A DNA stretch of 64,000 bases, taken from contig JAQICJ010000286.1 in NCBI GenBank assembly GCA_027858615.1, positions 1,926 to 65,925 on the forward strand, written 5' to 3'. The stretch comes from Deltaproteobacteria bacterium (GTDB taxonomy: Bacteria; Myxococcota_A; Polyangia; HGW-17). Positions 1 through 54,884 of the stretch are shown one piece after another (within the stretch, counting starts at the first letter, position 1; each line of letters begins with the position of its first letter). A model generated the notes under the pieces. The model did not search any database. It saw only the letters and a program-made list of their open reading frames with translations, and had not been told where the DNA came from. The position numbers were made by a program, and so were the translations under genes.

Positions 1-2379
1 ACCTGTCTTTACAGCGTTGAAATTGGAGCTGGGCGTAAAAGAAAATCTTTCCGTGAATGTAAATTGGCTCTGTCCAAACTTTATTCAAGTGAAAATGAAA
101 ATGGACAAATAAATCCTGTGGGTATTCTCTCTCTAGTAGCAGAAGGGGATCCAGCCAGACATCCCCTTGCTTATCAAGGCAAAGAAAAACGAAAAGTTGT
201 AGACAAATGGTATGTATATAAAGATGGGGACAATTATGTTCAATATGGTAAAGACAAAAACCAGTCCTCCAACCGTTCCAAAAGTCAAAAACTGTGCCTG
301 GAAAATTTCAAAAAATACAGAAATAGTGAATATTTCAAATTTGTTACCTATCGCCGTTACAAATATCTGAGAAAAATACAGGGTTCAGATAAAATTGGAT
401 CCTTTGCTGACCATCTCGAAAAAGCCAAGATCGAACATAAGAAAAGAGTTGGTAATTACGGAGACGGTGCCTGCAAGATCTTTGTACTCAATGAAAAGGG
501 CGGCTGGGACAAACAAGACTCGGCTGTTGTTGAAAGAACAGCTCTTGAAGCTTTGCGCGGAATGGGAGCTGGAGATGATATAAAAAGAATCTTCCTCGAA
601 AATTACAGTTCTTATGCCATGGAAGCCTATTGGGATTTCACAGCCGAACAGTCCTGGGAAGCAGCCAAAGTAAGCTGTGAAAAAGAAGGCATGATGAGGA
701 TGTACATCAAAAAATTCTGTGTTCCTAAATATAACGATAAAATTGATGGTATCAAATCCCAGTGGAACAAACTCAAAGATTACAACTGGTTAGTGGATGC
801 TTCCAAAGAAGCTATGTACGGTTCCGGTTGGTACACAACTTCCACAAATGATGATTTAAGCAGAAGAATCAGAGACGAACTGGAAAAAAGACTTAAATGG
901 CTGCACGATCCAAGATCAACTGTTTTTGCCGCCAAATCTCTGGCCATGGTTCCTTACAAGAAAGATAGCTTTAAAAATATTCTCGATGTAGTTGTCGATC
1001 TGGAACATGATCCCGAAAACAAAGACGAAAAGGCTGTGTCTTTGGAACCTTGGCACATTGCAACCGAACTGCTCTGGGAACAATACCGACAACAAACTAT
1101 TCAAAATCTGCAAAAGGGTAATTTCGAAAAGAGATGTGCCACTTTAGGTGGAGAATTAAAAGACAAATGTCAGAAGAAATTTGGCAAAGCCTTCCAGAAA
1201 GTAATGGAAGTTTTCCAGATGTGGAGTTTCAACAGAGACAGATGGTTGCGTTCAAGATACATGTGGCTATTACCACTGCAGGATTATTTCGGTTATTGGC
1301 CCATTGATCCAAAAACAAAAAAACCTGTTCAGATGGATGCCAAAACACTTTATAAAGAATATGTAAAGTGGACCAAAAAATGTGAAGAAAAACGAAAAGC
1401 TTTCAGTAAAACCACTGAAGCTAAAAAGAAACCTAAAAATGAACCCATCTGTGATGGTTATGATAAATCTAAAGATTGGGGTTGGAACATCAAGGCTTCT
1501 CAAGCAGCCAAGGGTATGAGCAAAGCCGGTATTTCAGCCAAAGAGGCAGAAAAACGACTTGTTCTCACTGGTTACGAAAGAGTTAGACTTGATATTCTCA
1601 AGTCAGCCTTTGATTATGCTTCTATTGAAGATTTCAAAACTCTCATGAGCATAAAACCAGAGCATATCATGATCGATCCAGGTCTCCATCCTCTAGACAA
1701 GGTTGATCGTGACAAATTGTCCGAAGCAGCAAAAGTTGATTACGAACTCATGGTGCAAAGGCCATGGGACAAAAAAATGGAAAAATATAGACAAATAGTT
1801 GCCAAAAAAGTTATCAAGTCAGAATTGGATAAATTGCTTGAACCAATCCATGACTTGAAATCTTTTTCCAAAGCTTATCTTGGCAGTGAAGCTCCCATTA
1901 ACAATATTTCAGCTCTGAGAACCATTATTCAGACCGTATCAATTCAAAAGCCATGTCCCGAAAAGGATAAAGATGGTAAAGTTCCCTCTTGTGCAGTTTT
2001 TGAAGATAAATACAACGAAAAAACTGAAGAATGGACGCAAATCCGCAAACCTTCAAGACAGACAATTGTTACTCCCTGGAGAGCCCGTCACAAGGCACTT
2101 ATGTTGATTAATGCCTGGGATAAAAACATCAACGAAGGTGACCGTAAAAATCTCGTTCAGACTTTGGCCACAACCTACGAAAAATCCGAAGTTCCTGTAA
2201 GAGAAGCAATTTTGCTGGTTCTCGACCGCTGGAGTAACTCCTCAGATTATAAAGACGTAGCTGAACCAATTAAAAAAGTTGTTAAATTTGAAACTGATAA
2301 CCATCGTAGAGGTGGTTATTTCTGGATGAATCAAAGAGCTCTCTCCTTCCTCGGAAGACTCAAAGGTAAACAAAAATAA
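1..2379 (+). CDS. large lysine-rich hypothetical protein, 5'-partial (reading frame open to window start; track start at 64 is only the first TTG)
   Basis: Frame 1 has no stop from nt 1 to 2379. No recognisable motif was found by eye. Composition is K/E/D-rich. Confidence 0.55.
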   Translation, partial: TCLYSVEIGAGRKRKSFRECKLALSKLYSSENENGQINPVGILSLVAEGDPARHPLAYQGKEKRKVVDKWYVYKDGDNYVQYGKDKNQSSNRSKSQKLCLENFKKYRNSEYFKFVTYRRYKYLRKIQGSDKIGSFADHLEKAKIEHKKRVGNYGDGACKIFVLNEKGGWDKQDSAVVERTALEALRGMGAGDDIKRIFLENYSSYAMEAYWDFTAEQSWEAAKVSCEKEGMMRMYIKKFCVPKYNDKIDGIKSQWNKLKDYNWLVDASKEAMYGSGWYTTSTNDDLSRRIRDELEKRLKWLHDPRSTVFAAKSLAMVPYKKDSFKNILDVVVDLEHDPENKDEKAVSLEPWHIATELLWEQYRQQTIQNLQKGNFEKRCATLGGELKDKCQKKFGKAFQKVMEVFQMWSFNRDRWLRSRYMWLLPLQDYFGYWPIDPKTKKPVQMDAKTLYKEYVKWTKKCEEKRKAFSKTTEAKKKPKNEPICDGYDKSKDWGWNIKASQAAKGMSKAGISAKEAEKRLVLTGYERVRLDILKSAFDYASIEDFKTLMSIKPEHIMIDPGLHPLDKVDRDKLSEAAKVDYELMVQRPWDKKMEKYRQIVAKKVIKSELDKLLEPIHDLKSFSKAYLGSEAPINNISALRTIIQTVSIQKPCPEKDKDGKVPSCAVFEDKYNEKTEEWTQIRKPSRQTIVTPWRARHKALMLINAWDKNINEGDRKNLVQTLATTYEKSEVPVREAILLVLDRWSNSSDYKDVAEPIKKVVKFETDNHRRGGYFWMNQRALSFLGRLKGKQK

Positions 2380-2613: not shown

Positions 2614-4536
2614 ATGATCAAGTTCCAAATAATCGAGGGCGAACAAAGTGGTGAATGTTTTGAGAGCGATGAAGCTGTATTTACTATAGGTAGAATTGAC
2701 AATAATGATTTTTCATTAAGTGATTATCACATCAGTAGTGAACATGCTCAGGTATTTTGGGAAGACAATCAATACATCTTTAAAGATTTGAGATCCACAA
2801 ACGGTTCGGTGATAAAAAGGGGAGAGGATCTGTTTACTGTGAATGGAGCCCATCATTGGGAACTACCTTTGCAGCAAGGAGACAGACTGCTGTTGGGAGC
2901 ACCTCATTCTCCAGTAATTATAGAATGCAAAAAAGTTGCCAGCCCTTCTTTTGTTGATGAATCCGATAAAAAAACAAAAGTGGTTCTGGCACGAGATAAA
3001 AGCCAATTGGAGACCTTCCAGGAAAAAGCACTGGATGACCATAATCTTGCTAGAATCATGTACAGAATGGTACAGACAATTGGTAAAAGTGGACTCAGGT
3101 TGTCAGATGTTCTGGACAATGTTGCCAAAGCTGTTTTTGAATTGATCAAATTATCTACCAATGTTTCCATTTATTTAAAAAACAGATCAAATCGATTCAA
3201 ATTAAAATATTCCTGTTCCAGGCAGGGCAAAGAACAGTCCAATGGGTCAAGATCTGTTATCAGACTTGTATTAAAGCGTAAACAAGCCGTTGTTGTAGCT
3301 GATGCTCCAGAAGTTCTTTCCGATTCAGAATCAATTCTGGCGGCTGATATCAAGTCGGTTATCGCTGTTCCTTTCTGGCACAAAGGAAAAATCAGCGGGA
3401 TTTTGCAATGTGATAACCGGGGTAGTAATGGAATTTTTTCCGAAAAAGAGCTGGAGTATCTTACTCTGCTCAGTTATCAGGCGAATCTTGCAATTCAAAA
3501 TGCCCGTTATTTTGGACAGTTGGAACAAAAAGAAAAACAAGTAGAATCAGAGAATTACTACCTCAAAAAAAACCGGAATATTTTCACTTTCAACGATATC
3601 ATCGGTGAATCAGATGAAATGCATAAAATATTCGAACAATTGAAGAAAGTTCTGGACACCAGAGTTTCCATCCACATCTGGGGAGAAACAGGGACCGGAA
3701 AAGAATTGATTGCCTCTTCCATTCATTATCAGAGCAAGAGAAAAGACAAAATGTTCGTAGCTCAGAATTGTGCTGCTTTACCGGAAAATTTGCTGGAAAG
3801 CGAATTATTTGGTCATGAAAAAGGCTCTTTTACCGGAGCTGACCGTAAAAAGAAGGGATTGTTCGAAATTTCAGATGGAGGAACCCTGTTCCTTGATGAA
3901 ATAGCTGATATGTCACCCTCATTACAGGTTAAGCTTTTGAGAGTGCTTCAGGAGGGTGAAATAAGACCTGTTGGTTCCACTCAAGTAAAATATGTTGATG
4001 TTCGTATTATTTCAGCTACCCATAAAAATCTGGAAAAAGAAGTGGAAAATAATAATTTTAGAGAAGATCTTTTTTACAGGCTTCATGTTTTCCCCATTAA
4101 ATTACCGCCTTTAAGAGACAGGCAGGGAGATATAGAAATTCTGACCCGGCATTTTCTGGAAAAATTCAATCGAGAATTGAAAAAAGATGTTTCCATCTCA
4201 AAATGTGCTCTGGAAGAAATGAAGGGTTATAAATGGAAAGGAAATATCCGAGAGTTGGAAAATGAAGTCCAGCGTCTGGTTATATTGGCTGATTCCGAAG
4301 ATACTATCAAAACTGATAATCTCAGAGCTCATCAACGCAAGCAGACTTCGGTAATGGGTCGGAAGATGTATGATAAATCAAAAACCCTCAAGGAGTTGGT
4401 TGGGGAAGTTGAAAAAATAATTATCAGGCAAGCCATCAAAGACTCTGGTGGTAATAAAACAAACGCCGCCAAAAATCTGGGAATTACCAGAGAAGGATTA
4501 TACAAGAAGATCTCACGCTTCAACATGGAGTTATAG
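2614..4536 (+). CDS. sigma-54-dependent transcriptional activator with N-terminal FHA domain, central GAF-like domain, AAA+ sigma54-interaction domain and C-terminal Fis-type HTH
   Basis: FHA-like N-terminus (FTIGR..NDFSLSDYHISSEHAQVF...STNGS). Walker A GETGTGKE, ESELFGHEKGSFTGA (GAFTGA-type) motif, and C-terminal NAAKNLGITREGLYKKI helix-turn-helix. Confidence 0.85.
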   Translation: MIKFQIIEGEQSGECFESDEAVFTIGRIDNNDFSLSDYHISSEHAQVFWEDNQYIFKDLRSTNGSVIKRGEDLFTVNGAHHWELPLQQGDRLLLGAPHSPVIIECKKVASPSFVDESDKKTKVVLARDKSQLETFQEKALDDHNLARIMYRMVQTIGKSGLRLSDVLDNVAKAVFELIKLSTNVSIYLKNRSNRFKLKYSCSRQGKEQSNGSRSVIRLVLKRKQAVVVADAPEVLSDSESILAADIKSVIAVPFWHKGKISGILQCDNRGSNGIFSEKELEYLTLLSYQANLAIQNARYFGQLEQKEKQVESENYYLKKNRNIFTFNDIIGESDEMHKIFEQLKKVLDTRVSIHIWGETGTGKELIASSIHYQSKRKDKMFVAQNCAALPENLLESELFGHEKGSFTGADRKKKGLFEISDGGTLFLDEIADMSPSLQVKLLRVLQEGEIRPVGSTQVKYVDVRIISATHKNLEKEVENNNFREDLFYRLHVFPIKLPPLRDRQGDIEILTRHFLEKFNRELKKDVSISKCALEEMKGYKWKGNIRELENEVQRLVILADSEDTIKTDNLRAHQRKQTSVMGRKMYDKSKTLKELVGEVEKIIIRQAIKDSGGNKTNAAKNLGITREGLYKKISRFNMEL

Positions 4537-25193: not shown

Positions 25194-25231
25194 AATTGAA
25201 GTTGAAATCTGTCTTTTATTCAACTTCAATT
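25194..25231. promoter_or_regulatory. perfect 13-bp-stem hairpin (AATTGAAGTTGAA-12 nt-TTCAACTTCAATT) upstream of the tRNA pair
   Basis: Seen directly in the sequence. A second 6-bp hairpin GCGGTT-ATTTGCCA-AACCGC follows at about 25247-25266. Confidence 0.4.
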
Positions 25232-25324
25232 AACATCGGGGTTTTGCGGTTATTTGCCAAACCGCACCTAATATTGATGTTTGCAATATTCCTGAGTTAT
25301 ATTATATTCAGGTCTGTTGTATCT

Positions 25325-25401
25325 GGCTCTGTGGCCCAATTGGTAGAGGCGCTCGACTCAAAATCGAGAGGTTCTGGGTTCGACTCCCAGCAGAGCCACC
25401 A
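25325..25401 (+). tRNA. class-I tRNA with anticodon CAA (reads UUG); identity uncertain; encodes CCA
   Basis: Acceptor GGCTCTG/CAGAGCC, U8, D-loop with G18G19 and A21. Anticodon arm CTCGA-CTCAAAA-TCGAG, 5-nt variable loop AGGTT, T-arm CTGGG-TTCGACT-CCCAG, A73, CCA. Confidence 0.65.
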
Positions 25402-25409
25402 CATCTTTT

Positions 25410-25495
25410 GCCCGGATGGCGGAATAGGTAGACGCAGCGGACTTAAAATCCGCCGGGATTCATCTCCTGTACCGGTTCGATTCCGGTTCTGGGCA
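25410..25495 (+). tRNA. tRNA-Leu(UAA), class II with long variable arm
   Basis: GCCCGGA acceptor, GGTAGACGCA D region typical of Leu, anticodon arm GCGGA-CTTAAAA-TCCGC, long variable arm, T-arm CCGG-TTCGATT-CCGG. Confidence 0.9.
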
Positions 25496-25497
25496 CA

Positions 25498-26292
25498 ATG
25501 AAACTACAAAAACCCCCTGCACTTCTTCTTGATCTTGATGGAACTCTCTATGTTGGTTCTCGTATGCTGGATTCAACAGCCGAGTTTCTGGAATTTTTGA
25601 GAACTCAAAAAATTCCCCATCTTTTTCTGACCAATAATTCTTCACGCAGTGCCAGAGAATATTATGAAAAATTAAGAAACAAGGGTATTGTTCTTGAAGA
25701 ATCCCAAGTTCTTACCAGTGGTGATGCCACAATTTCCTATCTGCAGAAACATACGGATTACCAAAAAATCTATCTTATGGGTACTCCTTCTCTGGAGGAT
25801 GATTTTCAAAGAGCCGGGTTTAAACTCACAGCAGATGATCCCCAGTGTCTGGTTCTTGGTTATGATACCCAGATTACCTATCAAAAACTTGAGACAGCTT
25901 CTCGTTTTCTATATGCTGGTTTGCCATATATGGCAACTCATCCAGATCTAACCTGCATTACAGAAACTGGTCTTATTCCTGATACTGGTTTTTTCATAGC
26001 AGGATTCAGATTGATGACAGGCAGAACCCCGTTGATTCTGGGAAAACCATCCTCAAATATGCTTGAAGCTGCTTTGGAACGAATGCAGATAGAGTTTTCT
26101 TCCAAAATTCTCATGGTTGGAGATCAACTTGATACTGATATCAAATTGGGGGTGGACAATGGAATTACTTCAGCTCTGATGCTTTCAGGGGAAACCTCAC
26201 TAGCTCAGGTGGAAGAATATCCCCTCTCTCCCCATTTTATCCATGAACATAATGGCAAATTATTGGAAGATCTACAGAAGTTATATTCCTGA
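25498..26292 (+). CDS. HAD superfamily hydrolase, subfamily IIA (NagD/CECR5-like sugar-phosphatase family)
   Basis: LLLDLDGTLY nucleophile motif, LTNNSS, GDQLDTDI. Starts 3 nt after tRNA-Leu. Confidence 0.8.
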   Translation: MKLQKPPALLLDLDGTLYVGSRMLDSTAEFLEFLRTQKIPHLFLTNNSSRSAREYYEKLRNKGIVLEESQVLTSGDATISYLQKHTDYQKIYLMGTPSLEDDFQRAGFKLTADDPQCLVLGYDTQITYQKLETASRFLYAGLPYMATHPDLTCITETGLIPDTGFFIAGFRLMTGRTPLILGKPSSNMLEAALERMQIEFSSKILMVGDQLDTDIKLGVDNGITSALMLSGETSLAQVEEYPLSPHFIHEHNGKLLEDLQKLYS

Positions 26293-26572
26293 GGGAACTT
26301 TAAAACTACAAAACATCTCAGGTTGCAACAAAAGAGTGTTTCAAGATATCAGTCCAAGGGGAAATAATAATTTATTTTGCTATTTTTTCAAAACAATCTA
26401 TTATATCCTTTTGATATATCAAATAACGATATTAGCTCCGAAAATTATTGGCTGTATTAATAAATTTAATACTCAAGAAATCTCATAATCTTAAAAATTA
26501 TCTTTAAAAAATTATGATTCTTGCAGATATTTGTTATTTTTGTTAAAAATTTCCATATAAATGAGGAAATAA

Positions 26573-27862
26573 ATGAACAAAATTCTACTTGTAGCTGACG
26601 ACAGTAAGACAATAAAAAAAGCATTTGAGTTGAGTTTCACTGGCAAGGATATCGATCTAATTTTTGCAAATGATGGTCAATCGGCTCTGATGAAAGCAAA
26701 AAAACAAAAACCGGGAGTTGTCATTGCCGATCATAAATTACCGGGGTTGAATGGTTATGATCTTCTTTCAGAAATGAAAAGAGAAGCAGGGCTGGGTAAA
26801 ATTCCCTTCATAATAATGCACAGTCATTACCAGGAATTTGACGAAGTAAAAGGAGTCGGGGCTGAAGATCACATTGCCAAACCATTTTTGACCAAAGAGA
26901 TCCATGAAGTTGTGGACAAGGCTTTTGAAGTGGTGCAATCAGGAGTTTCAGAAGAAGTAGAGCAGGAAATTATCATAGATGCAGAATTTCCTGACGAAGA
27001 AGAAGCCCCTGATGAACTTGAACTTCAATTTGAAAATCTTGGTTTGAAAAAGAAATCAAATGGTATGTCTTCGGCATCCAAGCCAGCCCGTCCGGTAGTA
27101 CCTCGCTCGTCCAAGCCAGCAGCTCCGCAAAGGCCAGCCCGTCCGGCAGTACCTCGCTCGTCCAAGCCAGCAGCTCCGCAAAGGCCAGCCCGTCCGGCAG
27201 TACCTCGTTCGTCCAAGCCAGCGGTTCCACAAAAGCCAGCCCGTCCGGCAGTACCTCGTTCGTCCAAGCCAGTGGTTCCACAAAAGCCAGCTCGTCCTTC
27301 GGTACCTCGCTCGTCCAAGCCAGCAGCTCCGCAAAGGCCAGCCCGTCCGGCAGTACCAGGAGCAAACAAAGAAGAAAAGGCTCAATCCACTTTTGCACCG
27401 CCACCTTCCCGTCCTGTCAAACCAGAAGCTCCCAAGGCCACGAAACCGGGTGTTCCGGAGAAACAAAAACAGGAAAAATCAGGCAAGCCTTTTGTTTCTT
27501 CTGACAAATTTAAAAAATCAAGCAAAACTGCTACTGCAGGAACAAAAAAATCCGGTGGCGGACAGACAGTATTCATGTCCTCTTTTGCTCCAACTCCAGC
27601 TCAGGAGACTCCAACTTCCGAAAAAAGTTCCCAAACTGCAGAAAATGAACAGATTAAAGAAAAAGTCGTTCAGGATACCCAAAAGCAAGTCAAAGGAATT
27701 GTCGATAAGAAAGTCAGGGAAATATCGGCTCAAGGTGAAGAATTCAAAGCAATAGCCAATTTGAGCAGAGACATCATCGAAAAAATAGCTTGGGAAGTAG
27801 TACCCCAGTTAGCCGAGGTAATTATAAAAGAAATTGCAGTTAAGGACAAGCATCTCAAATAA
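26573..27862 (+). CDS. response regulator with N-terminal receiver domain, proline-rich repeat linker and conserved helical C-terminal domain (RomR-like architecture)
   Basis: Receiver domain (LLVADDSKTIKK...IADHKLPGLNGYDLL...KPF). About 5.7 tandem copies of a 17-aa P/A/R-rich unit, and an acidic/helical C-terminus. Confidence 0.7.
   Translation: MNKILLVADDSKTIKKAFELSFTGKDIDLIFANDGQSALMKAKKQKPGVVIADHKLPGLNGYDLLSEMKREAGLGKIPFIIMHSHYQEFDEVKGVGAEDHIAKPFLTKEIHEVVDKAFEVVQSGVSEEVEQEIIIDAEFPDEEEAPDELELQFENLGLKKKSNGMSSASKPARPVVPRSSKPAAPQRPARPAVPRSSKPAAPQRPARPAVPRSSKPAVPQKPARPAVPRSSKPVVPQKPARPSVPRSSKPAAPQRPARPAVPGANKEEKAQSTFAPPPSRPVKPEAPKATKPGVPEKQKQEKSGKPFVSSDKFKKSSKTATAGTKKSGGGQTVFMSSFAPTPAQETPTSEKSSQTAENEQIKEKVVQDTQKQVKGIVDKKVREISAQGEEFKAIANLSRDIIEKIAWEVVPQLAEVIIKEIAVKDKHLK
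27076..27366 (+). repeat. 51-bp tandem repeat (about 5.7 copies; unit CCAGCCCGTCCGGCAGTACCTCGCTCGTCCAAGCCAGCAGCTCCGCAAAGG) inside the response-regulator gene
   Basis: Near-identical units read directly. They encode PARPAVPRSSKPAAPQR repeats. Confidence 0.9.
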
Positions 27863-30086: not shown

Positions 30087-30335
30087 AGGATAGCAAGTTA
30101 CAAGTGTATGTAATGATTGTGTAATGATTGTTGTAAAACCAATGGTGACTTTTTGTGGACAGGCGGGCAATAACTGTCTCTTTTTGTGTACAGGGGTTGC
30201 GTCATTGGGTTTGACACCAGATTTAACAATATTAAATATGTAGATAAAACATGTAGTTAAAGTGTTTTTAAATTAAGTTTTCGAGGTGGGCACAGATATT
30301 GCTTTTAACGCAGTGTGTCATCAAAGGAGACTGCA

Positions 30336-31274
30336 ATGAAATACTTTATATTTGTAAACATCAAATCAGTACTATTAATTGTTCTTTTTTTCGGTGGATT
30401 GATTTCAGGTTGTGATCAAAATATTTCTGAAAACAATTTTCCCGAGGATTCCCTGCGCTTGCTCTATCAAACAAAAGTTCCCGCAGGTTATGAAAATCTT
30501 ACCATTATAAATGCTGGTTCTAATTCCGGAAGAGTTTATCTGGAAACCGGAAACAATAAAATTTCAGTAATAGAAAAAAATGGGGATTACCAGATTATGG
30601 ATCCAGATTGTAAACTGGTAAGAATCAATCAACAACTTGCTCTTTGTGAAAGTGGTATTCTCTCTCTTGATAGTTATGATTTTAAAAGCTTCCCGAGAGA
30701 TATGGAAAAGTTTAACTTTACCAACGGAGCCATCGGACCAATGGGTAGATTGGTTTATCTTTATGATAAAACAGGAAAATTAAGTTTGACAGATTCCGGT
30801 TGGACCCATGAAGCCAGTGACGACAGCAATCTATTGCTTTGGAAAAAAGGGCGTGAAACCCTGGAAATTATAGCGGGTCATGGCAAGATTCATCTTGGAA
30901 CTGTGAAATTGGCAGGAAAATTGATCGATCTTGAAATCTCAGGGGAAAATATCTTTGTTCTTTATTTGTCAGAAGAAAGAGAAACCTGGGGAATAGAAAC
31001 AATCTCAATAGATAATTACAAAAGATCGGGTGATTTGATTGAGGAAAAAATTACCGCAGGAGTAGCTCCGGTAGATTTTGCTGTTTCCCCCCAACAAAAA
31101 TCAATGGTTATCTTTACTCGAGACAACACAGTTTATTATCTGGATTTGATTACCATTGAATATGAAAAAATAACTCTGCCTTGGCAGGTTGACTATGTCA
31201 TCAATCTCCAAAATAAATTTTTTGCCTGGTCCAGTCAGAACTACGAACTCCACAAGTTGACTAATTGTAACTGA
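30336..31274 (+). CDS. hypothetical lipoprotein
   Basis: GGAG RBS 7 nt upstream of the ATG at 30336. Signal peptide plus lipobox LISGC. No recognisable domain. Confidence 0.5.
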   Translation: MKYFIFVNIKSVLLIVLFFGGLISGCDQNISENNFPEDSLRLLYQTKVPAGYENLTIINAGSNSGRVYLETGNNKISVIEKNGDYQIMDPDCKLVRINQQLALCESGILSLDSYDFKSFPRDMEKFNFTNGAIGPMGRLVYLYDKTGKLSLTDSGWTHEASDDSNLLLWKKGRETLEIIAGHGKIHLGTVKLAGKLIDLEISGENIFVLYLSEERETWGIETISIDNYKRSGDLIEEKITAGVAPVDFAVSPQQKSMVIFTRDNTVYYLDLITIEYEKITLPWQVDYVINLQNKFFAWSSQNYELHKLTNCN

Positions 31275-38010: not shown

Positions 38011-38550
38011 GTGAGAGAAAAAGATATGGACAAGCTACAGATTATATTTTTGATAGCAGCCTTTGGGTTGGGGATTCTTATCTACCGGGTTTTAGCTGTA
38101 TATTTTAAAAAACTCAGGGGTAAAAAATATTATAAACGGGGACAAAAGGGCGAGGTCAAAGCGGAAAAGCTACTGAAAAAAGCAGGTTGGCATATTATTA
38201 AAAGACAGCCAAAAAAAAAGGGAAAACTGGTTTTAGACGGCCAAGAGTTAGAATATAAGGTTCAAGCGGATTTTTTAGTGGAGAAAGGCAAGATCAGAGC
38301 CATAGTGGAAGTGAAAACAGGAAAATCAGCCCTGAAGCCTGCCACCGGAAAAGTTCGTCGCCAGCTTTTTGAATATTACCATCTTTACCAGGAGGACAAG
38401 CTTATTTTTGTGGATGCACCGGCCGGCAAGCTGGTGGAAGTTGCTTTTCCTGAAGCCGGTACAATCAATAAATTCCATCGGATCTTCTGGTTTATTGCAG
38501 GTAATCTTACGGCTCTGGCGAGTATTTATCTTCTGATTGAAGTTCTTTAA
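38011..38550 (+). CDS. membrane-anchored NERD/PD-(D/E)xK nuclease-fold protein (hypothetical)
   Basis: N- and C-terminal hydrophobic helices. Core GEVKAEKLLKKAGWHII...ADFLVEKGKIRAIVEVKTGK resembles the D...E-x-K restriction-endonuclease-like fold. Confidence 0.45.
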   Translation: MREKDMDKLQIIFLIAAFGLGILIYRVLAVYFKKLRGKKYYKRGQKGEVKAEKLLKKAGWHIIKRQPKKKGKLVLDGQELEYKVQADFLVEKGKIRAIVEVKTGKSALKPATGKVRRQLFEYYHLYQEDKLIFVDAPAGKLVEVAFPEAGTINKFHRIFWFIAGNLTALASIYLLIEVL

Positions 38551-40603: not shown

Positions 40604-42037
40604 TCATAAAGCGAATTCTTTAATTTTGTTCTGCAAACCTTTGCGGCTGATTTTGAGTAGTTTGGCGGCTTTACTGACATTGCCCCCGGTTTTTTTGAGT
40701 GTTTTGGCAATTATTTCTTTTTCAATTCTGTTTTTTTCCTGCTTTACAACTTCTTTCAGACCACCCTTGTCCAGAGAATTTTTAGCAGGCAGGTTGGTTT
40801 TGCTGGTATTGTGACTGGAGACGATGATTTCCCCGGGTAAATCCTCGACGGTTATCTGGTTGCCCTCTGAGAGAAGAAGAATTCTCTGGGTCAGATTTTC
40901 CAACTCCCGGATATTACCGGGCCAGGAATAATTTTCCATCATGGTAACAGCCCCTTGGGTGAAATGAGGCAACTGGGGATTGAGATCTGCATATTTGTGA
41001 CAGAAAAAATCGATGAGTGGTTTGATATCTTCTTTACGTTCTCTCAAGGGAGCTAGATTCACAGGAACTACATTGAGGCGGTAGTAAAGATCTTCTCTGA
41101 ACTTTTTTTGTTCCACAAGTTGTTTGAGATTGTGGTTGGTGCAGGCGATAATACGGACATCGATTCTGATGGTTTCTATTCCTCCCACCCTTTCAAATTC
41201 GTTTTCCTGGAGAACTCGCAATAATTTTGCCTGCATGAATAGAGGAATTTCGCTGATTTCGTCGAGGAGGAGGGTTCCTTTGTGAGCCAGTTCGAATTTG
41301 CCGGGTTTTGCACTGACTGCTCCGGTAAAAGCTCCTTTCTCATAACCGAAAAACTCACTTTCCGTGAGATTTTCAGGGATGGCGGCACAATTGACTCTGA
41401 CAAAAGGTTTGTTTTTACGGGGAGACAGATTGTGAATGGCTTGGGCGACGAGTTCTTTGCCGGTTCCGCTTTCCCCGGTAATCAAAACGGTAGAAGCCGA
41501 GGGACTGATCTTTTCGATGAGGGTGAAAACCTGGTTTATTTTGCTGCTGACTCCCACCATGTTGAATTTAGAAGGAATACTATGATCAGAAGGTACGGTT
41601 TGTTTGCGGTATATTTGCTTGTGACTTTTTACAGCTTTGTTGACAGTAGCCAGGAGATGATCCTTTTCAAAGGGTTTTTCGATATAATCGAAAGCTCCGG
41701 CTTTAACTGCAGCAACGGCATTATTGATGGAACCATGGGCAGTAAGAATAATTACAGGTAGATTTTCAGAAATTTCCTTGATTTTGCCCAGAAGTTCCAC
41801 CCCGTCCATTCGAGGCATTTTGAGATCGGTAAGGACTACATCTATTTCAGGATTCTCCTGAAAAATTTTCATTGCTTCTTTGCCGTCAGAAGCTCTGAGG
41901 CAGGAAAATCCATCCCGGGAAAGATGGGTGGAAATTACTTTGCGCAGATTTTTTTCATCATCAACACTTAAAATTGCCGGTTTGGTTTTCAATATTGCCA
42001 TGATCTGAATTTTTATTTCTATTGGGTAAAATGGCAA
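40604..42037 (-). CDS. sigma-54-dependent response regulator (NtrC family): receiver + AAA+ + HTH (probable start at internal Met, 42001)
   Basis: Receiver domain (ILSVDDE...LTDLKMPRMDG), Walker A GESGTGKE, ESEFFGYEKGAFTGA, and C-terminal AAKLLKISRKGL HTH. Confidence 0.85.
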   Translation of the reverse strand: MPFYPIEIKIQIMAILKTKPAILSVDDEKNLRKVISTHLSRDGFSCLRASDGKEAMKIFQENPEIDVVLTDLKMPRMDGVELLGKIKEISENLPVIILTAHGSINNAVAAVKAGAFDYIEKPFEKDHLLATVNKAVKSHKQIYRKQTVPSDHSIPSKFNMVGVSSKINQVFTLIEKISPSASTVLITGESGTGKELVAQAIHNLSPRKNKPFVRVNCAAIPENLTESEFFGYEKGAFTGAVSAKPGKFELAHKGTLLLDEISEIPLFMQAKLLRVLQENEFERVGGIETIRIDVRIIACTNHNLKQLVEQKKFREDLYYRLNVVPVNLAPLRERKEDIKPLIDFFCHKYADLNPQLPHFTQGAVTMMENYSWPGNIRELENLTQRILLLSEGNQITVEDLPGEIIVSSHNTSKTNLPAKNSLDKGGLKEVVKQEKNRIEKEIIAKTLKKTGGNVSKAAKLLKISRKGLQNKIKEFAL

Positions 42038-53511: not shown

Positions 53512-54009
53512 ATGAAAACATCAATCTTTGTTTGCAACAAAAAATTTGACTTGGTCAAAAAACTTTTTGTTTTTGCCCTTTTGTTTTTATCACTGGTGGC
53601 TGTGGCAGGTTGTACCAAATATTTTGCTTCCCGCAGCCAATTTGACAAAATTGACAGAGAAGCTGCTTTGGTGGAAGAGGAACTGGCGGATGCCGATCTG
53701 TCCGCACAGAAAAGGTACAAAGTTCTCAGTTCCCAATTAAAGGAAATCAAATCCATAAAAGACGAACGCCAATTGTTTCAAGGAGCCATGAACCGAATGT
53801 CAACAGCTCTTTTTCAGGATATTAAAGAACTGACTCGAGCTGTGGCTGATCTGACCACCAGGATGGACAAACTGGAAAAAAAAGCCGAAGCTTTATTGGA
53901 GAAGAGATCTCGGCAAAAACAAATCGTAGAAAAAAAATGGGATGAAAAGATTAAGAATCTGGAACAGAAAGCCTGCAAAAAATGGCCAGGTCTTGAAGGG
54001 TGCAGATAA
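53512..54009 (+). CDS. coiled-coil lipoprotein (hypothetical)
   Basis: Lipobox VAVAGC, then heptad-rich helical sequence. Confidence 0.45.
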   Translation: MKTSIFVCNKKFDLVKKLFVFALLFLSLVAVAGCTKYFASRSQFDKIDREAALVEEELADADLSAQKRYKVLSSQLKEIKSIKDERQLFQGAMNRMSTALFQDIKELTRAVADLTTRMDKLEKKAEALLEKRSRQKQIVEKKWDEKIKNLEQKACKKWPGLEGCR

Positions 54010-54029
54010 TAATTGGAAAATGAGGAATT

Positions 54030-54884
54030 ATGGTGAAAATTAAAATCTGGTTTTTTACAGGATTGGTGTTTTCTTTTCTCTTGTCGGGTTGCAGTTGGTT
54101 TGTAACCAGGAAAGAAGCCGATCAGATGAAAATTAGAGTTGAAAAAATTTCCGAAGAATTGAAACAAAGAAGAAAAGAAGAAAAAGTTTTTGGTGAGGCC
54201 ATAGTTAATGCAAAAAAAGAATTGAGCAAGGTATCTGAAGCCAGAGAACGCTATCGCAAGGAACAAACGGCTTTTATCAGGAAGGTTCATCTCCTGCTTT
54301 CAAAACTCAATGTAAACATCAGAACTTTTGAAGTAAATCTGGCATCTTTAAAAAAGAAGGTGGACAAAACCCTCAAAAAAGAAGTGGAAGAAATTGAAAC
54401 TATCTTCAAGGAAAGGGCTGCTGAGCTTCAGGAACTGGGAAAAAAATTCAATTTGCTCATTGCCAATTATATCAAGGATTCTCCCCAAAAATTTCTCAAG
54501 TATTACAAGGCTTTTGCTGTAGCTAAAGAGTGGAAATCCCTCAATCGGCATCTGGCCCTGATGAAGTTGAAATATCCTTCTTCAAATGAAATGGAAGAAG
54601 GGTTGATTTTTGCCCTGAAAAAACTGAATGAAGCCAAAGAATACGGTAAAGTAATCATTTATTGCGGGCTCTATCGCCGACTTTTTTCCCAAGGGCCACA
54701 TTATCCCCTTAGCTTGCTGATGGAAGCCGAGGCAAAATATGCCATTATGAATTGCAGTGATGCCATTAAACTGCTTGAAGAATTCAGCAAAAAATTTCCC
54801 AACCACAAACAGTTTTCCAAAGTCAAAAAATTGCAGCAGGATATTTCATCCAAACTTCACTCCAAGATGTATTGTGCCAAGTAA
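54030..54884 (+). CDS. coiled-coil plus TPR-like lipoprotein (CpoB/YbgF-like architecture, hypothetical)
   Basis: Lipobox LLSGC, N-terminal coiled coil, C-terminal helical repeats. Confidence 0.4.
   Translation: MVKIKIWFFTGLVFSFLLSGCSWFVTRKEADQMKIRVEKISEELKQRRKEEKVFGEAIVNAKKELSKVSEARERYRKEQTAFIRKVHLLLSKLNVNIRTFEVNLASLKKKVDKTLKKEVEEIETIFKERAAELQELGKKFNLLIANYIKDSPQKFLKYYKAFAVAKEWKSLNRHLALMKLKYPSSNEMEEGLIFALKKLNEAKEYGKVIIYCGLYRRLFSQGPHYPLSLLMEAEAKYAIMNCSDAIKLLEEFSKKFPNHKQFSKVKKLQQDISSKLHSKMYCAK

What the first reader, a model, noticed from the sequence alone, without database searches (positions are those of the whole stretch)
26573..27862. RomR-like response regulator with a 51-bp tandem-repeat proline-rich linker
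A receiver domain is followed by about 5.7 copies of a near-perfect 51-bp repeat (27076-27366) encoding P/A/R-rich 17-mers, then a conserved helical C-terminus. This matches the RomR architecture of polarity/motility regulators in Myxococcus and Bdellovibrio. The near-identical DNA repeats are prone to slippage, so the linker length is likely polymorphic between strains.
Basis: partly seen in the sequence, partly recalled or inferred. Interest (0 to 1): 0.5.

Follow-up and report, generated by a model that had tools for sequence, protein, structure and literature searches.

The report
RomR polarity regulator with repeat-built linker
This gene encodes a member of the known RomR family, the scaffold protein that marks the cell poles in gliding myxobacteria, from an uncultured low-GC myxobacterium. 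Its flexible middle part is built from about 5.6 copies of a 17-residue repeat, which turns out to be common in this family, so the finding is correct but fairly ordinary.

Summary
ORF 26573-27862 (+, 429 aa) has a receiver domain (Pfam E=2e-17). An in-frame 51-bp array follows at 27077-27364: 5 full units plus an 11-residue partial unit (TRF: 5.4 copies, 90% match). The protein ends in a predicted helical C-terminus.

The RomR reading is supported. The C-terminus (LSRDIIEKIAWEVVPQLAE) belongs to the RomR-C family. It keeps all four residues reported for MglC binding in M. xanthus RomR (E390, K391, W394, E402). The phospho-acceptor D53 and the acid pocket are also conserved, and the protein aligns end to end with RomR orthologues of cultured Myxococcaceae.

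Two syntenic orthologues carry arrays at the same place. One, from a genome about 85% identical in DNA, has 5.8 x 51 bp. A more distant one has 11.8 x 42 bp. Units are more alike within a genome (87-88%) than between genomes (77%), so the array turns over. Strain-level polymorphism could not be tested.

Repeat-built linkers are common in the family (27 of 66 genes). One twist is that the residue that bridges to RomX in M. xanthus (E108) is Leu in this subclade. No mglA or mglB lies in the window.

Verdict: a new member of a known kind, of modest interest.

The parts
26563..26567 (+). Shine-Dalgarno-like GAGGA, 5 nt upstream of the ATG
   Evidence: Read directly from the sequence. The N-terminus MNKILLVADDS aligns with family N-termini.
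26573..27862 (+). romR-like gene, 429 aa including the stop codon
   Evidence: ORF list. It is identical to GenBank MDA3864696.1, 'MAG: response regulator [Deltaproteobacteria bacterium]'.
26573..26932 (+). Receiver (REC) domain, aa 1-120. The acid pocket is D9, D10, D53 (codon 26729-26731) and K103.
   Evidence: Pfam PF00072 aa 6-114, E=2.2e-17. AF2 pLDDT is above 90. D9, D10, D53, K103 and P104 are invariant or nearly so in 111 family REC domains.
26888..26890 (+). Codon of L106, the position equivalent to M. xanthus RomR E108 (the RomX salt-bridge residue)
   Evidence: The family column reads E69/D23/Q18/T1. The window, P0012, P0157 and P0003 have Leu there, and the L001 orthologue also reads KPFLT. 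The role of E108 is from bioRxiv 10.1101/2024.02.20.581209.
26933..27040 (+). Acidic block, aa 121-156 (net -14), containing the motif EQEIIIDAEFPDEEE...ELQFE
   Evidence: Charge count. Related E-I-x-I-[DE] motifs occur in P0012, P0157, L004, L028 and, near the C-terminus, in Myxococcaceae RomR.
27077..27364 (+). In-frame tandem array: one truncated unit plus five 51-bp (17-aa) units SKPAAPQRPARPAVPRS. Net charge +22, 29% Pro.
   Evidence: TRF, unit parsing and identity matrix, composition.
27365..27634 (+). Non-repetitive Lys/Ser/Pro-rich disordered segment, aa 265-354, including the short motif GQTVFMSSFAP
   Evidence: AF2 shows no secondary structure and pLDDT 36-68. Comparable T-x-hydrophobic motifs occur in other family members.
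27635..27856 (+). C-terminal helical region, aa 355-428 (two predicted helices)
   Evidence: AF2 helices 355-385 and 388-428.
27761..27832 (+). RomR-C core motif LSRDIIEKIAWEVVPQLAEVIIKE (aa 397-420). W407 (codon 27791-27793) corresponds to W394 of M. xanthus RomR.
   Evidence: HMMER family hits. Invariant columns E, W, E, P, L, E in alignment A1. Published residues that contact MglC.

Best explanation
The gene encodes the RomR orthologue of an uncultured, low-GC member of Myxococcota (NCBI label Polyangia/'Deltaproteobacteria'). By analogy with M. xanthus RomR, it is a cytoplasmic polar scaffold with three parts. First, a phosphorylatable receiver domain serves as a docking or input module. 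Second, a ~230-aa intrinsically disordered linker acts as spacer and as one pole-targeting or self-association determinant. [quoted passage not shown] In this lineage the disordered linker is built from an acidic block followed by a strongly basic Pro/Ala/Arg/Lys-rich tandem array. The array is maintained in frame and is homogenised and resized by unequal recombination or slippage, so the linker's sequence and length drift between species while REC and RomR-C stay fixed. Shown here: the domain architecture, family membership by sequence, conservation of the phospho-acceptor pocket and of the MglC-contact residues, orthology by synteny, and array turnover. Inferred: polar localisation, MglC/MglB/MglA partnership, and any functional effect of copy number.
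For: REC domain. The RomR-C family is detected by an exhaustive HMMER scan (203 hits) and the motif sits at the C-terminus of the hits. 112 of the 117 retrieved full-length-search hits carry the strict RomR-C motif; four others carry near variants and one is a partial protein cut at a contig end. Orthologues in cultured Myxococcaceae match the published RomR residue numbering, and the window protein conserves E, K, W and E of the MglC interface. D53 and the pocket residues are invariant. The end-to-end alignment is 26-31% identical to Myxococcaceae and other Myxococcota RomR orthologues. AF2 gives a folded REC, a disordered 125-354 and C-terminal helices, the same layout described for RomR in PMC12719032 and PMC3441718. 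The gene order HAD hydrolase - romR - inositol monophosphatase, with RNase Y, ZapA and DsbD nearby, is shared with L001 and L081. Arrays lie at the same position in both orthologues. Unit identity is 87-88% within a genome against 77% between genomes. The functional model comes from PMC10329633 and PMC3441718.
Against: No mglA, mglB, Roadblock or other recognisable polarity or motility gene was found among 45 ORFs of the 64-kb window scanned with Pfam. The rest of the genome could not be searched. The residue that forms the RomX salt bridge in M. xanthus (E108) is Leu, and V17 is Ala, in this subclade, so the REC-RomX link may be altered or absent. The linker is much more basic (net +21) and less Pro/Gly-rich than in Myxococcaceae, so linker-dependent behaviour may differ. 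A RomR-REC-specific HMM did not cleanly separate RomR REC domains from a stand-alone REC.
Confidence: 0.7

Rival explanations
1. It is a RomR-derived protein that has been rewired. It keeps the RomR-C helix and polar-hub behaviour but no longer works through RomX/MglA-GTP. It would resemble Bdellovibrio RomR, which is a static polar hub whose receiver phosphorylation has lost importance.
For: The E108 equivalent is Leu and V17 is Ala in the window, L001, P0012, P0157 and P0003, whereas 110 of 111 other family members have E, D or Q there. E108 is the RomX salt-bridge residue. Lowry et al. 2019 document functional divergence of RomR in Bdellovibrio. No partner genes lie in the window.
Against: The phospho-acceptor pocket (D9, D10, D53, K103) is intact, unlike the truncated Bdellovibrio REC. 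A co-varying change in RomX could restore the interface. Partner genes are not normally linked to romR, so their absence from the window says little.
Confidence: 0.2
2. It is a generic orphan response regulator with a low-complexity tail. The likeness to RomR would be superficial: any REC domain plus any Pro-rich region.
For: Pfam and NCBIfam recognise only the receiver domain. Public annotations call it 'response regulator', 'CheY-like' or 'OmpR family'.
Against: The C-terminal 45 aa show specific homology to RomR-C with six invariant columns, including the functionally essential Trp. Of the 117 retrieved full-length hits, 112 carry the strict RomR-C motif and four carry near variants. No DNA-binding domain is present, so the OmpR label is wrong.
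Confidence: 0.03
3. The array, or its copy number, is an artefact of short-read metagenome assembly (collapse or expansion of a repeat).
For: The sequence comes from a MAG. Units 2 and 3 differ at 1 of 51 nt, so about 100 nt are nearly identical and copy number is hard to assemble exactly.
Against: An independently assembled related genome (L001) has the same array at the same place with a similar copy number and an intact frame. A third orthologue also has an array. Most units carry distinguishing substitutions.
Confidence: 0.07

Closest known systems
RomR of Myxococcus xanthus (MXAN_4461), the polar scaffold of the MglA/MglB/MglC/RomX polarity module
   Same: N-terminal receiver with D53. 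A long disordered Pro-rich linker. A C-terminal helix with the motif EKxxWEVVPxLAE that contains the MglC-contact residues. Similar total length (429 against 420 aa). The distance from REC to Trp is within the family's interquartile range.
   Different: Only about 28% identity overall. The linker is a clean 17-aa basic repeat (SKPAAPQRPARPAVPRS, net +22) instead of PGMPPGPG-type Pro/Gly repeats. The acidic E-I-x-I-[DE] block lies directly after REC instead of just before RomR-C. The E108 equivalent is Leu. The host genome is about 37% GC, whereas the Myxococcaceae romR genes retrieved here are visibly GC-rich (repeat units).
RomR of Bdellovibrio bacteriovorus (Bd2761)
   Same: By the published description it has the same three-part layout, with conserved REC and C-terminal regions and a non-conserved centre (PMC6428892).
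   Different: Not compared directly here, because no Bdellovibrio sequence was retrieved. Bdellovibrio RomR is translated without the first receiver residues and is phosphorylation-independent. The window protein has a complete acid pocket.
Syntenic orthologues in uncultured low-GC Myxococcota: L001 (Polyangia bacterium 20BLK6-1.bin.28, 442 aa) and P0012/L081 (Myxococcota bacterium GCA_018820545.1, 529 aa)
   Same: Same gene neighbourhood. Same REC peculiarities (KPFLT, A17). The same acidic block and a tandem array at the same position. Identical or near-identical RomR-C.
   Different: L001 has units SKPAAPKKPARPSVPRS and is 12 aa longer in the first unit. P0012 has about 12 units of 14-17 aa (PRPSIPVAPAAPAAPAA) that are much less basic.

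Membership tests
RomR family (Keilberg et al. 2012, PMC3441718) | N-terminal response-regulator receiver domain with a phospho-acceptor Asp (D53 in M. xanthus) | tested here: met
   Pfam PF00072 E=2.2e-17. D53, D9, D10 and K103 align with invariant family columns. D53 is taken from PMC6428892.
RomR family (Keilberg et al. 2012, PMC3441718) | [quoted passage not shown] | tested here: met
   HMMER found 203 family hits with the last 89 aa. The motif LSRDIIEKIAWEVVPQLAE matches the invariant columns E, W, E, P, L, E. It matches cultured Myxococcaceae orthologues. It is predicted helical.
RomR family (Keilberg et al. 2012, PMC3441718) | Unstructured, non-conserved, Pro-rich linker between REC and RomR-C | tested here: met
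   AF2 gives no secondary structure for aa 125-354, with pLDDT 36-68. The whole linker is 16% Pro and the array 29% Pro. The REC-to-Trp distance is 406 aa against a family interquartile range of 352-406.
RomR family (Keilberg et al. 2012, PMC3441718) | The receiver domain belongs to the RomR-specific REC subfamily | tested here: inconclusive
   A RomR-REC HMM scores 109 bits against 64 bits for the generic Pfam model. The window's NtrC-type REC scores only 66 bits on it, but an unrelated stand-alone REC (P0274) scores 99.7 bits. The REC-only database search was uninformative.
RomR family (Keilberg et al. 2012, PMC3441718) | Co-occurrence with mglA and mglB in the genome | not testable with these tools
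   Only 64 kb are available. No Ras-like GTPase or Roadblock hit appeared in the 45 ORFs scanned. These genes are not expected to be linked to romR.
RomR as MglC-binding scaffold (PMC12719032, PMC10329633) | MglC-contact residues E390, K391, W394 (essential) and E402 in the C-terminal helix | tested here: met
   The window has E403, K404, W407 and E415 in EKIAWEVVPQLAE, with the same spacing. Binding itself was not tested.
RomR as RomX partner (bioRxiv 10.1101/2024.02.20.581209) | Conserved acidic residue E108 (salt bridge to RomX R76) and V17 at the REC-RomX interface | tested here: not met
   The window has L106 and A17. The family column is E69/D23/Q18/T1, and V is present in 93 of 111. The same substitutions occur in the syntenic orthologues.

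The most novel reading that the evidence does not exclude
Tandem arrays may be the general way in which the RomR family builds and retunes its disordered pole-targeting linker. In-frame arrays occur in 27 of 66 genes, with different units in each lineage and concerted evolution. In this low-GC subclade three changes coincide: a very basic Pro/Arg/Lys array, an adjacent acidic block, and loss of the RomX-contact glutamate. Together these could mark a rewired RomR whose polar self-association is electrostatic, either by multivalent acidic-basic block interaction or by binding anionic polar lipids. Copy number would then set its valency or reach.
Probability: 0.15. Interest if true: 0.5.

Novelty: new member of a known kind. 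Interest (0 to 1): 0.25.

Why it matters
RomR sits at the base of the best-studied bacterial front-rear polarity switch. How its disordered linker targets the pole and feeds back on its own accumulation is still not understood. This protein and its two syntenic orthologues form a small natural series. REC and RomR-C are held constant while the linker is a clean repeat of different unit, charge and copy number (5.6, about 6.3 and about 12 units). That series could be used to test whether linker length, valency or charge matters. The finding also shows that RomR extends into low-GC uncultured Myxococcota. It shows that public annotation ('OmpR family DNA-binding regulator', 'CheY-like') misses the family, because no Pfam or NCBIfam model covers RomR-C. 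Beyond that it is an expected family member.

Tried and rejected
1. Exact look-up of the window protein in the contig collection found no record.
2. The word-indexed search with the C-terminal 89 aa gave only 2 hits. The exhaustive HMMER scan was needed.
3. The REC-only homology search gave 16 candidates and 1 hit, which was uninformative for subfamily assignment.
4. The home-made RomR-REC HMM was not discriminating enough.
5. Two scans of JGI metagenome contigs found no relative. One used conserved peptides of the window/L001 pair and one used a degenerate 60-nt pattern for IIEKIAWEVVPQLAEVIIKE. Strain-level copy-number variation therefore could not be examined. The protein is also a singleton at 90% identity among about 15 billion proteins.
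6. The PDB sequence search returned only generic receiver domains and no RomR entry.
7. Pfam scans of 45 window ORFs found no MglA, MglB or Roadblock protein.
8. The literature search for 'RomR' plus 'tandem repeat' found nothing relevant.
9. A phase-variation (frameshift) reading was considered and rejected. The unit is 51 bp, or 17 codons, so copy changes never shift the frame.
10. Antisense ORFs 26973-27404, 27025-27369 and 27056-27466 were rejected as genes. They exist only because the repeat lacks stop codons.

Full report
**Observation.** The ORF at 26573-27862 (+) encodes 429 aa. A GAGGA sequence precedes the ATG by 5 nt. Tandem Repeats Finder reports a single array at 27082-27357: period 51, 5.4 copies, 90% matches, no indels, score 440. 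Parsed by codon, the array spans aa 169-264, which is nt 27077-27364. It consists of a truncated first unit (SKPARPVVPRS) and five 17-residue units: SKPAAPQRPARPAVPRS twice, then SKPAVPQKPARPAVPRS, SKPVVPQKPARPSVPRS and SKPAAPQRPARPAVPGA. Unit-to-unit DNA identity is 73-98%. The array is 29% Pro and 19% Ala, with 22 basic and no acidic residues. The local GC rise to 64% in a ~37% GC region follows from Pro/Ala/Arg codons.

**Domains.** Pfam and NCBIfam recognise only the receiver domain (aa 6-114, E=2.2e-17). An AlphaFold2 model built on a 40-sequence family alignment has three parts:
- a confident REC fold (pLDDT above 90 for aa 1-120);
- no secondary structure for aa 125-354 (pLDDT 36-68);
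- two C-terminal helices, 355-385 and 388-428 (pLDDT about 70-77).

Between REC and the array lies an acidic block, aa 121-156, with net charge -14.

**Is the C-terminus RomR-C?**
- The word-indexed search found only two fragments.
- An exhaustive HMMER scan of 1.84 billion representatives with the last 89 aa found 203 proteins at E<=1e-3. Nearly all carry LSREIIE[KQ][IV][VA]WEVVPELAE at the C-terminus, many in proteins of ~350-460 aa and the rest mostly short fragments.
- A scan of GTDB species genomes with an alignment of this motif returned 399 confirmed loci. Almost all of the 80 kept are from Myxococcota, plus Geobacter-like and Acidobacteria genomes.
- Among the kept loci are cultured Archangium, Corallococcus, Pyxidicoccus and Myxococcus dinghuensis. 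Their proteins begin MPKNLLVADDSLTIRKVIGMIFATEDFQVT and end ...ASREVIEKIAWEVVPQLAETIIREELERLIKDRETQH.
- In that tail the Trp is the 27th residue from a C-terminal His. For a 420-aa protein this gives W394, E390, K391, E402 and H420.
- These are exactly the residues and numbering published for M. xanthus RomR. There the helix D371-H420 binds MglC with nanomolar affinity and W394A abolishes binding (PMC12719032).
- The window protein reads EKIAWEVVPQLAE (E403, K404, W407, E415), so all four positions are conserved.
- The receiver carries D53 at the same number as RomR D53 (PMC6428892). D9, D10, K103 and P104 are invariant or nearly so across 111 family receivers.
- The full-length protein aligns end to end with these and other Myxococcota orthologues at 26-31% identity.
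- In a full-length database search, 112 of the 117 retrieved hits carry the strict RomR-C motif, four carry near variants and one is a partial protein.

This meets the family definition of Keilberg et al. 2012: REC, plus an unstructured non-conserved linker, plus RomR-C.

**Origin and orthologues.** The protein is identical to GenBank MDA3864696.1 from a 'Deltaproteobacteria bacterium' MAG, and it is a singleton at 90% identity. Two syntenic orthologues were found.
- L001 (Polyangia bacterium MAG 20BLK6-1.bin.28) is the closest genome found. It is about 85% identical in DNA and collinear over 16 kb. Its orthologue is 442 aa and 87% identical, with a 51-bp array of 5.8 copies at 95% match.
- P0012/L081 (Myxococcota bacterium GCA_018820545.1, about 40% GC) is more distant. 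It shares the neighbourhood RNase Y - ZapA - HAD hydrolase - romR - inositol monophosphatase - DsbD. It has an array of 11.8 copies of a 42-bp unit (42-51 bp in places), giving a 529-aa protein.

**Array dynamics.** Between the window and L001, the only length differences in the whole protein are 1 aa and a 12-aa indel in the first unit. The 12-aa indel is explained by a deletion between two KPAR motifs. Units are more alike within a genome (mean 87-88%, adjacent units 96-100%) than between genomes (mean 77%, maximum 86%). Every unit reads PQ[RK] in the window and PKK in L001. This is concerted evolution, so the array has been homogenised or re-expanded since the two lineages split, while copy number stayed near 5-6. 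The third orthologue shows that copy number and unit can change substantially over longer distances. Variation between strains could not be examined. P0012's identical sequence in three MAG accessions is weak evidence for short-term stability.

**How unusual is a repeat-built linker?** It is not unusual. TRF on 66 full-length family genes finds an in-frame array (at least 2.5 copies, score at least 100) in 27 of them, and 16 score at least 200. Units are lineage-specific, for example PGMPPGPG-type in Myxococcaceae and PPPRAREMTPA in L004. The window and L001 arrays are simply among the cleanest. The REC-to-Trp distance of 406 aa lies at the upper quartile of the family (median 368, interquartile range 352-406). 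No paper in the searchable library mentions tandem repeats in RomR. Keilberg et al. noted only that linker length and composition are conserved within taxa.

**Points of divergence.**
1. The residue equivalent to RomR E108 forms the salt bridge to RomX R76 and is described as highly conserved. It is Leu in the window, L001, P0012, P0157 and P0003, whereas 110 of 111 other family receivers have E, D or Q. V17 is Ala. The REC-RomX interface is therefore either changed or compensated in this subclade.
2. The linker is far more basic (net +21 to +23) than in Myxococcaceae (+4 to +9). It has the opposite sign to Geobacter and Acidobacteria members (-34 to -49).
3. The acidic E-I-x-I-[DE] block lies just after REC rather than just before RomR-C.

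**Context.** Pfam scans of 45 window ORFs show housekeeping genes and two sigma-54 activators. The housekeeping genes include PNPase, TruB, RbfA, RNase Y, YmdB, ZapA, enolase, GlnA, PurA, UvrA and UvrB, DsbA and DsbD, and BamB. No Ras-like GTPase or Roadblock protein was found. Partner genes are not expected to be linked to romR, and the rest of the genome is out of reach.

**Mechanism (inferred from M. xanthus).** RomR localises to the poles on its own and reinforces its own accumulation. Through RomR-C it recruits MglC and then MglB/RomY. Through REC it recruits RomX/MglA-GTP. The linker and RomR-C are each sufficient for polar targeting (PMC3441718, PMC10329633). The window protein has what the RomR-C-MglC arm and a phosphorylatable receiver require. 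The RomX arm is uncertain. The array most plausibly provides a flexible polyproline-II-rich spacer and a multivalent basic surface. Its repeat structure makes length and valency evolvable.

**Verdict.** The polymorphism prediction is plausible but untested at strain level. This is a new member of a known family with a lineage-specific linker and an altered RomX-contact residue. Interest is modest (0.25).

Noticed in passing
window 26888-26890 (L106) and 26621-26623 (A17): The REC residue that forms the RomX salt bridge in M. xanthus RomR (E108) is Leu, and V17 is Ala. This holds in the window protein and in all its close syntenic relatives. 110 of 111 other RomR-family receivers have E, D or Q at the first position.
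   Followed up: partly
window 26933-27040; also L081, L004, L028 and Myxococcaceae loci L078/L080: A short acidic motif of the form E-I-x-I-[DE] followed by acidic residues recurs across the RomR family, but at different places. It lies right after REC in the window subclade and in L004/L028, and just before RomR-C in Myxococcaceae (ISIEESLPEPSGAEEISLED). It could be an undescribed short linear motif.
   Followed up: partly
window 27560-27592 (GQTVFMSSFAP, aa 330-340): A second short conserved patch in the otherwise variable linker. It reads T-V-F-M-S-S-F here, GHTVFLSSYAP in P0012, RTMIGLPA or RTMMGIPA in other Polyangia-like members, and RDPFGLGA in Myxococcaceae.
   Followed up: no
P0004, P0024, P0043, P0057, P0072, P0115, P0116: Some proteins carry two or three copies of the WEVVP helix motif, and some are much longer (up to 764 aa). 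The RomR-C helix therefore also occurs in architectures other than the canonical REC-linker-RomR-C.
   Followed up: no
whole window; L001; L081: The genome is about 37-40% GC, although it is labelled Polyangia/Myxococcota. The romR genes retrieved from other Myxococcota, including cultured Myxococcaceae, are visibly GC-rich, so this appears to be a low-GC lineage of the phylum.
   Followed up: no
family-wide: The net charge of the RomR linker differs in sign between lineages. It is strongly acidic in Geobacter-like and Acidobacteria members (-34 to -49), mildly basic in Myxococcaceae (+4 to +9) and strongly basic here (+21 to +23).
   Followed up: partly
window 26973-27404, 27025-27369, 27056-27466 (- strand) and 25196-25501 (+): Long ORFs run antisense to the repeat array, and one ORF overlaps the two tRNA-Leu genes (25325-25401, 25410-25496). 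These are almost certainly not genes.
   Followed up: yes
window 2614-4536 (+) and 40604-42037 (-): Two sigma-54 enhancer-binding proteins are present. One has FHA-GAF-AAA+-HTH architecture and the other is an NtrC-type response regulator.
   Followed up: no
window 64-2379 (+), 30315-31274 (+), 38011-38550 (+), 53512-54884 (+): Several sizeable ORFs (771, 319, 179, 165 and 284 aa) have no Pfam match. The 319-aa ORF downstream of DsbD is conserved in L001, L038 and L040.
   Followed up: no
public annotation of MDA3864696.1: IMG names this protein 'DNA-binding response OmpR family regulator', but it has no DNA-binding domain. No Pfam or NCBIfam model covers RomR-C, so the whole family is annotated only as 'response regulator' or 'CheY-like'.
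   Followed up: yes
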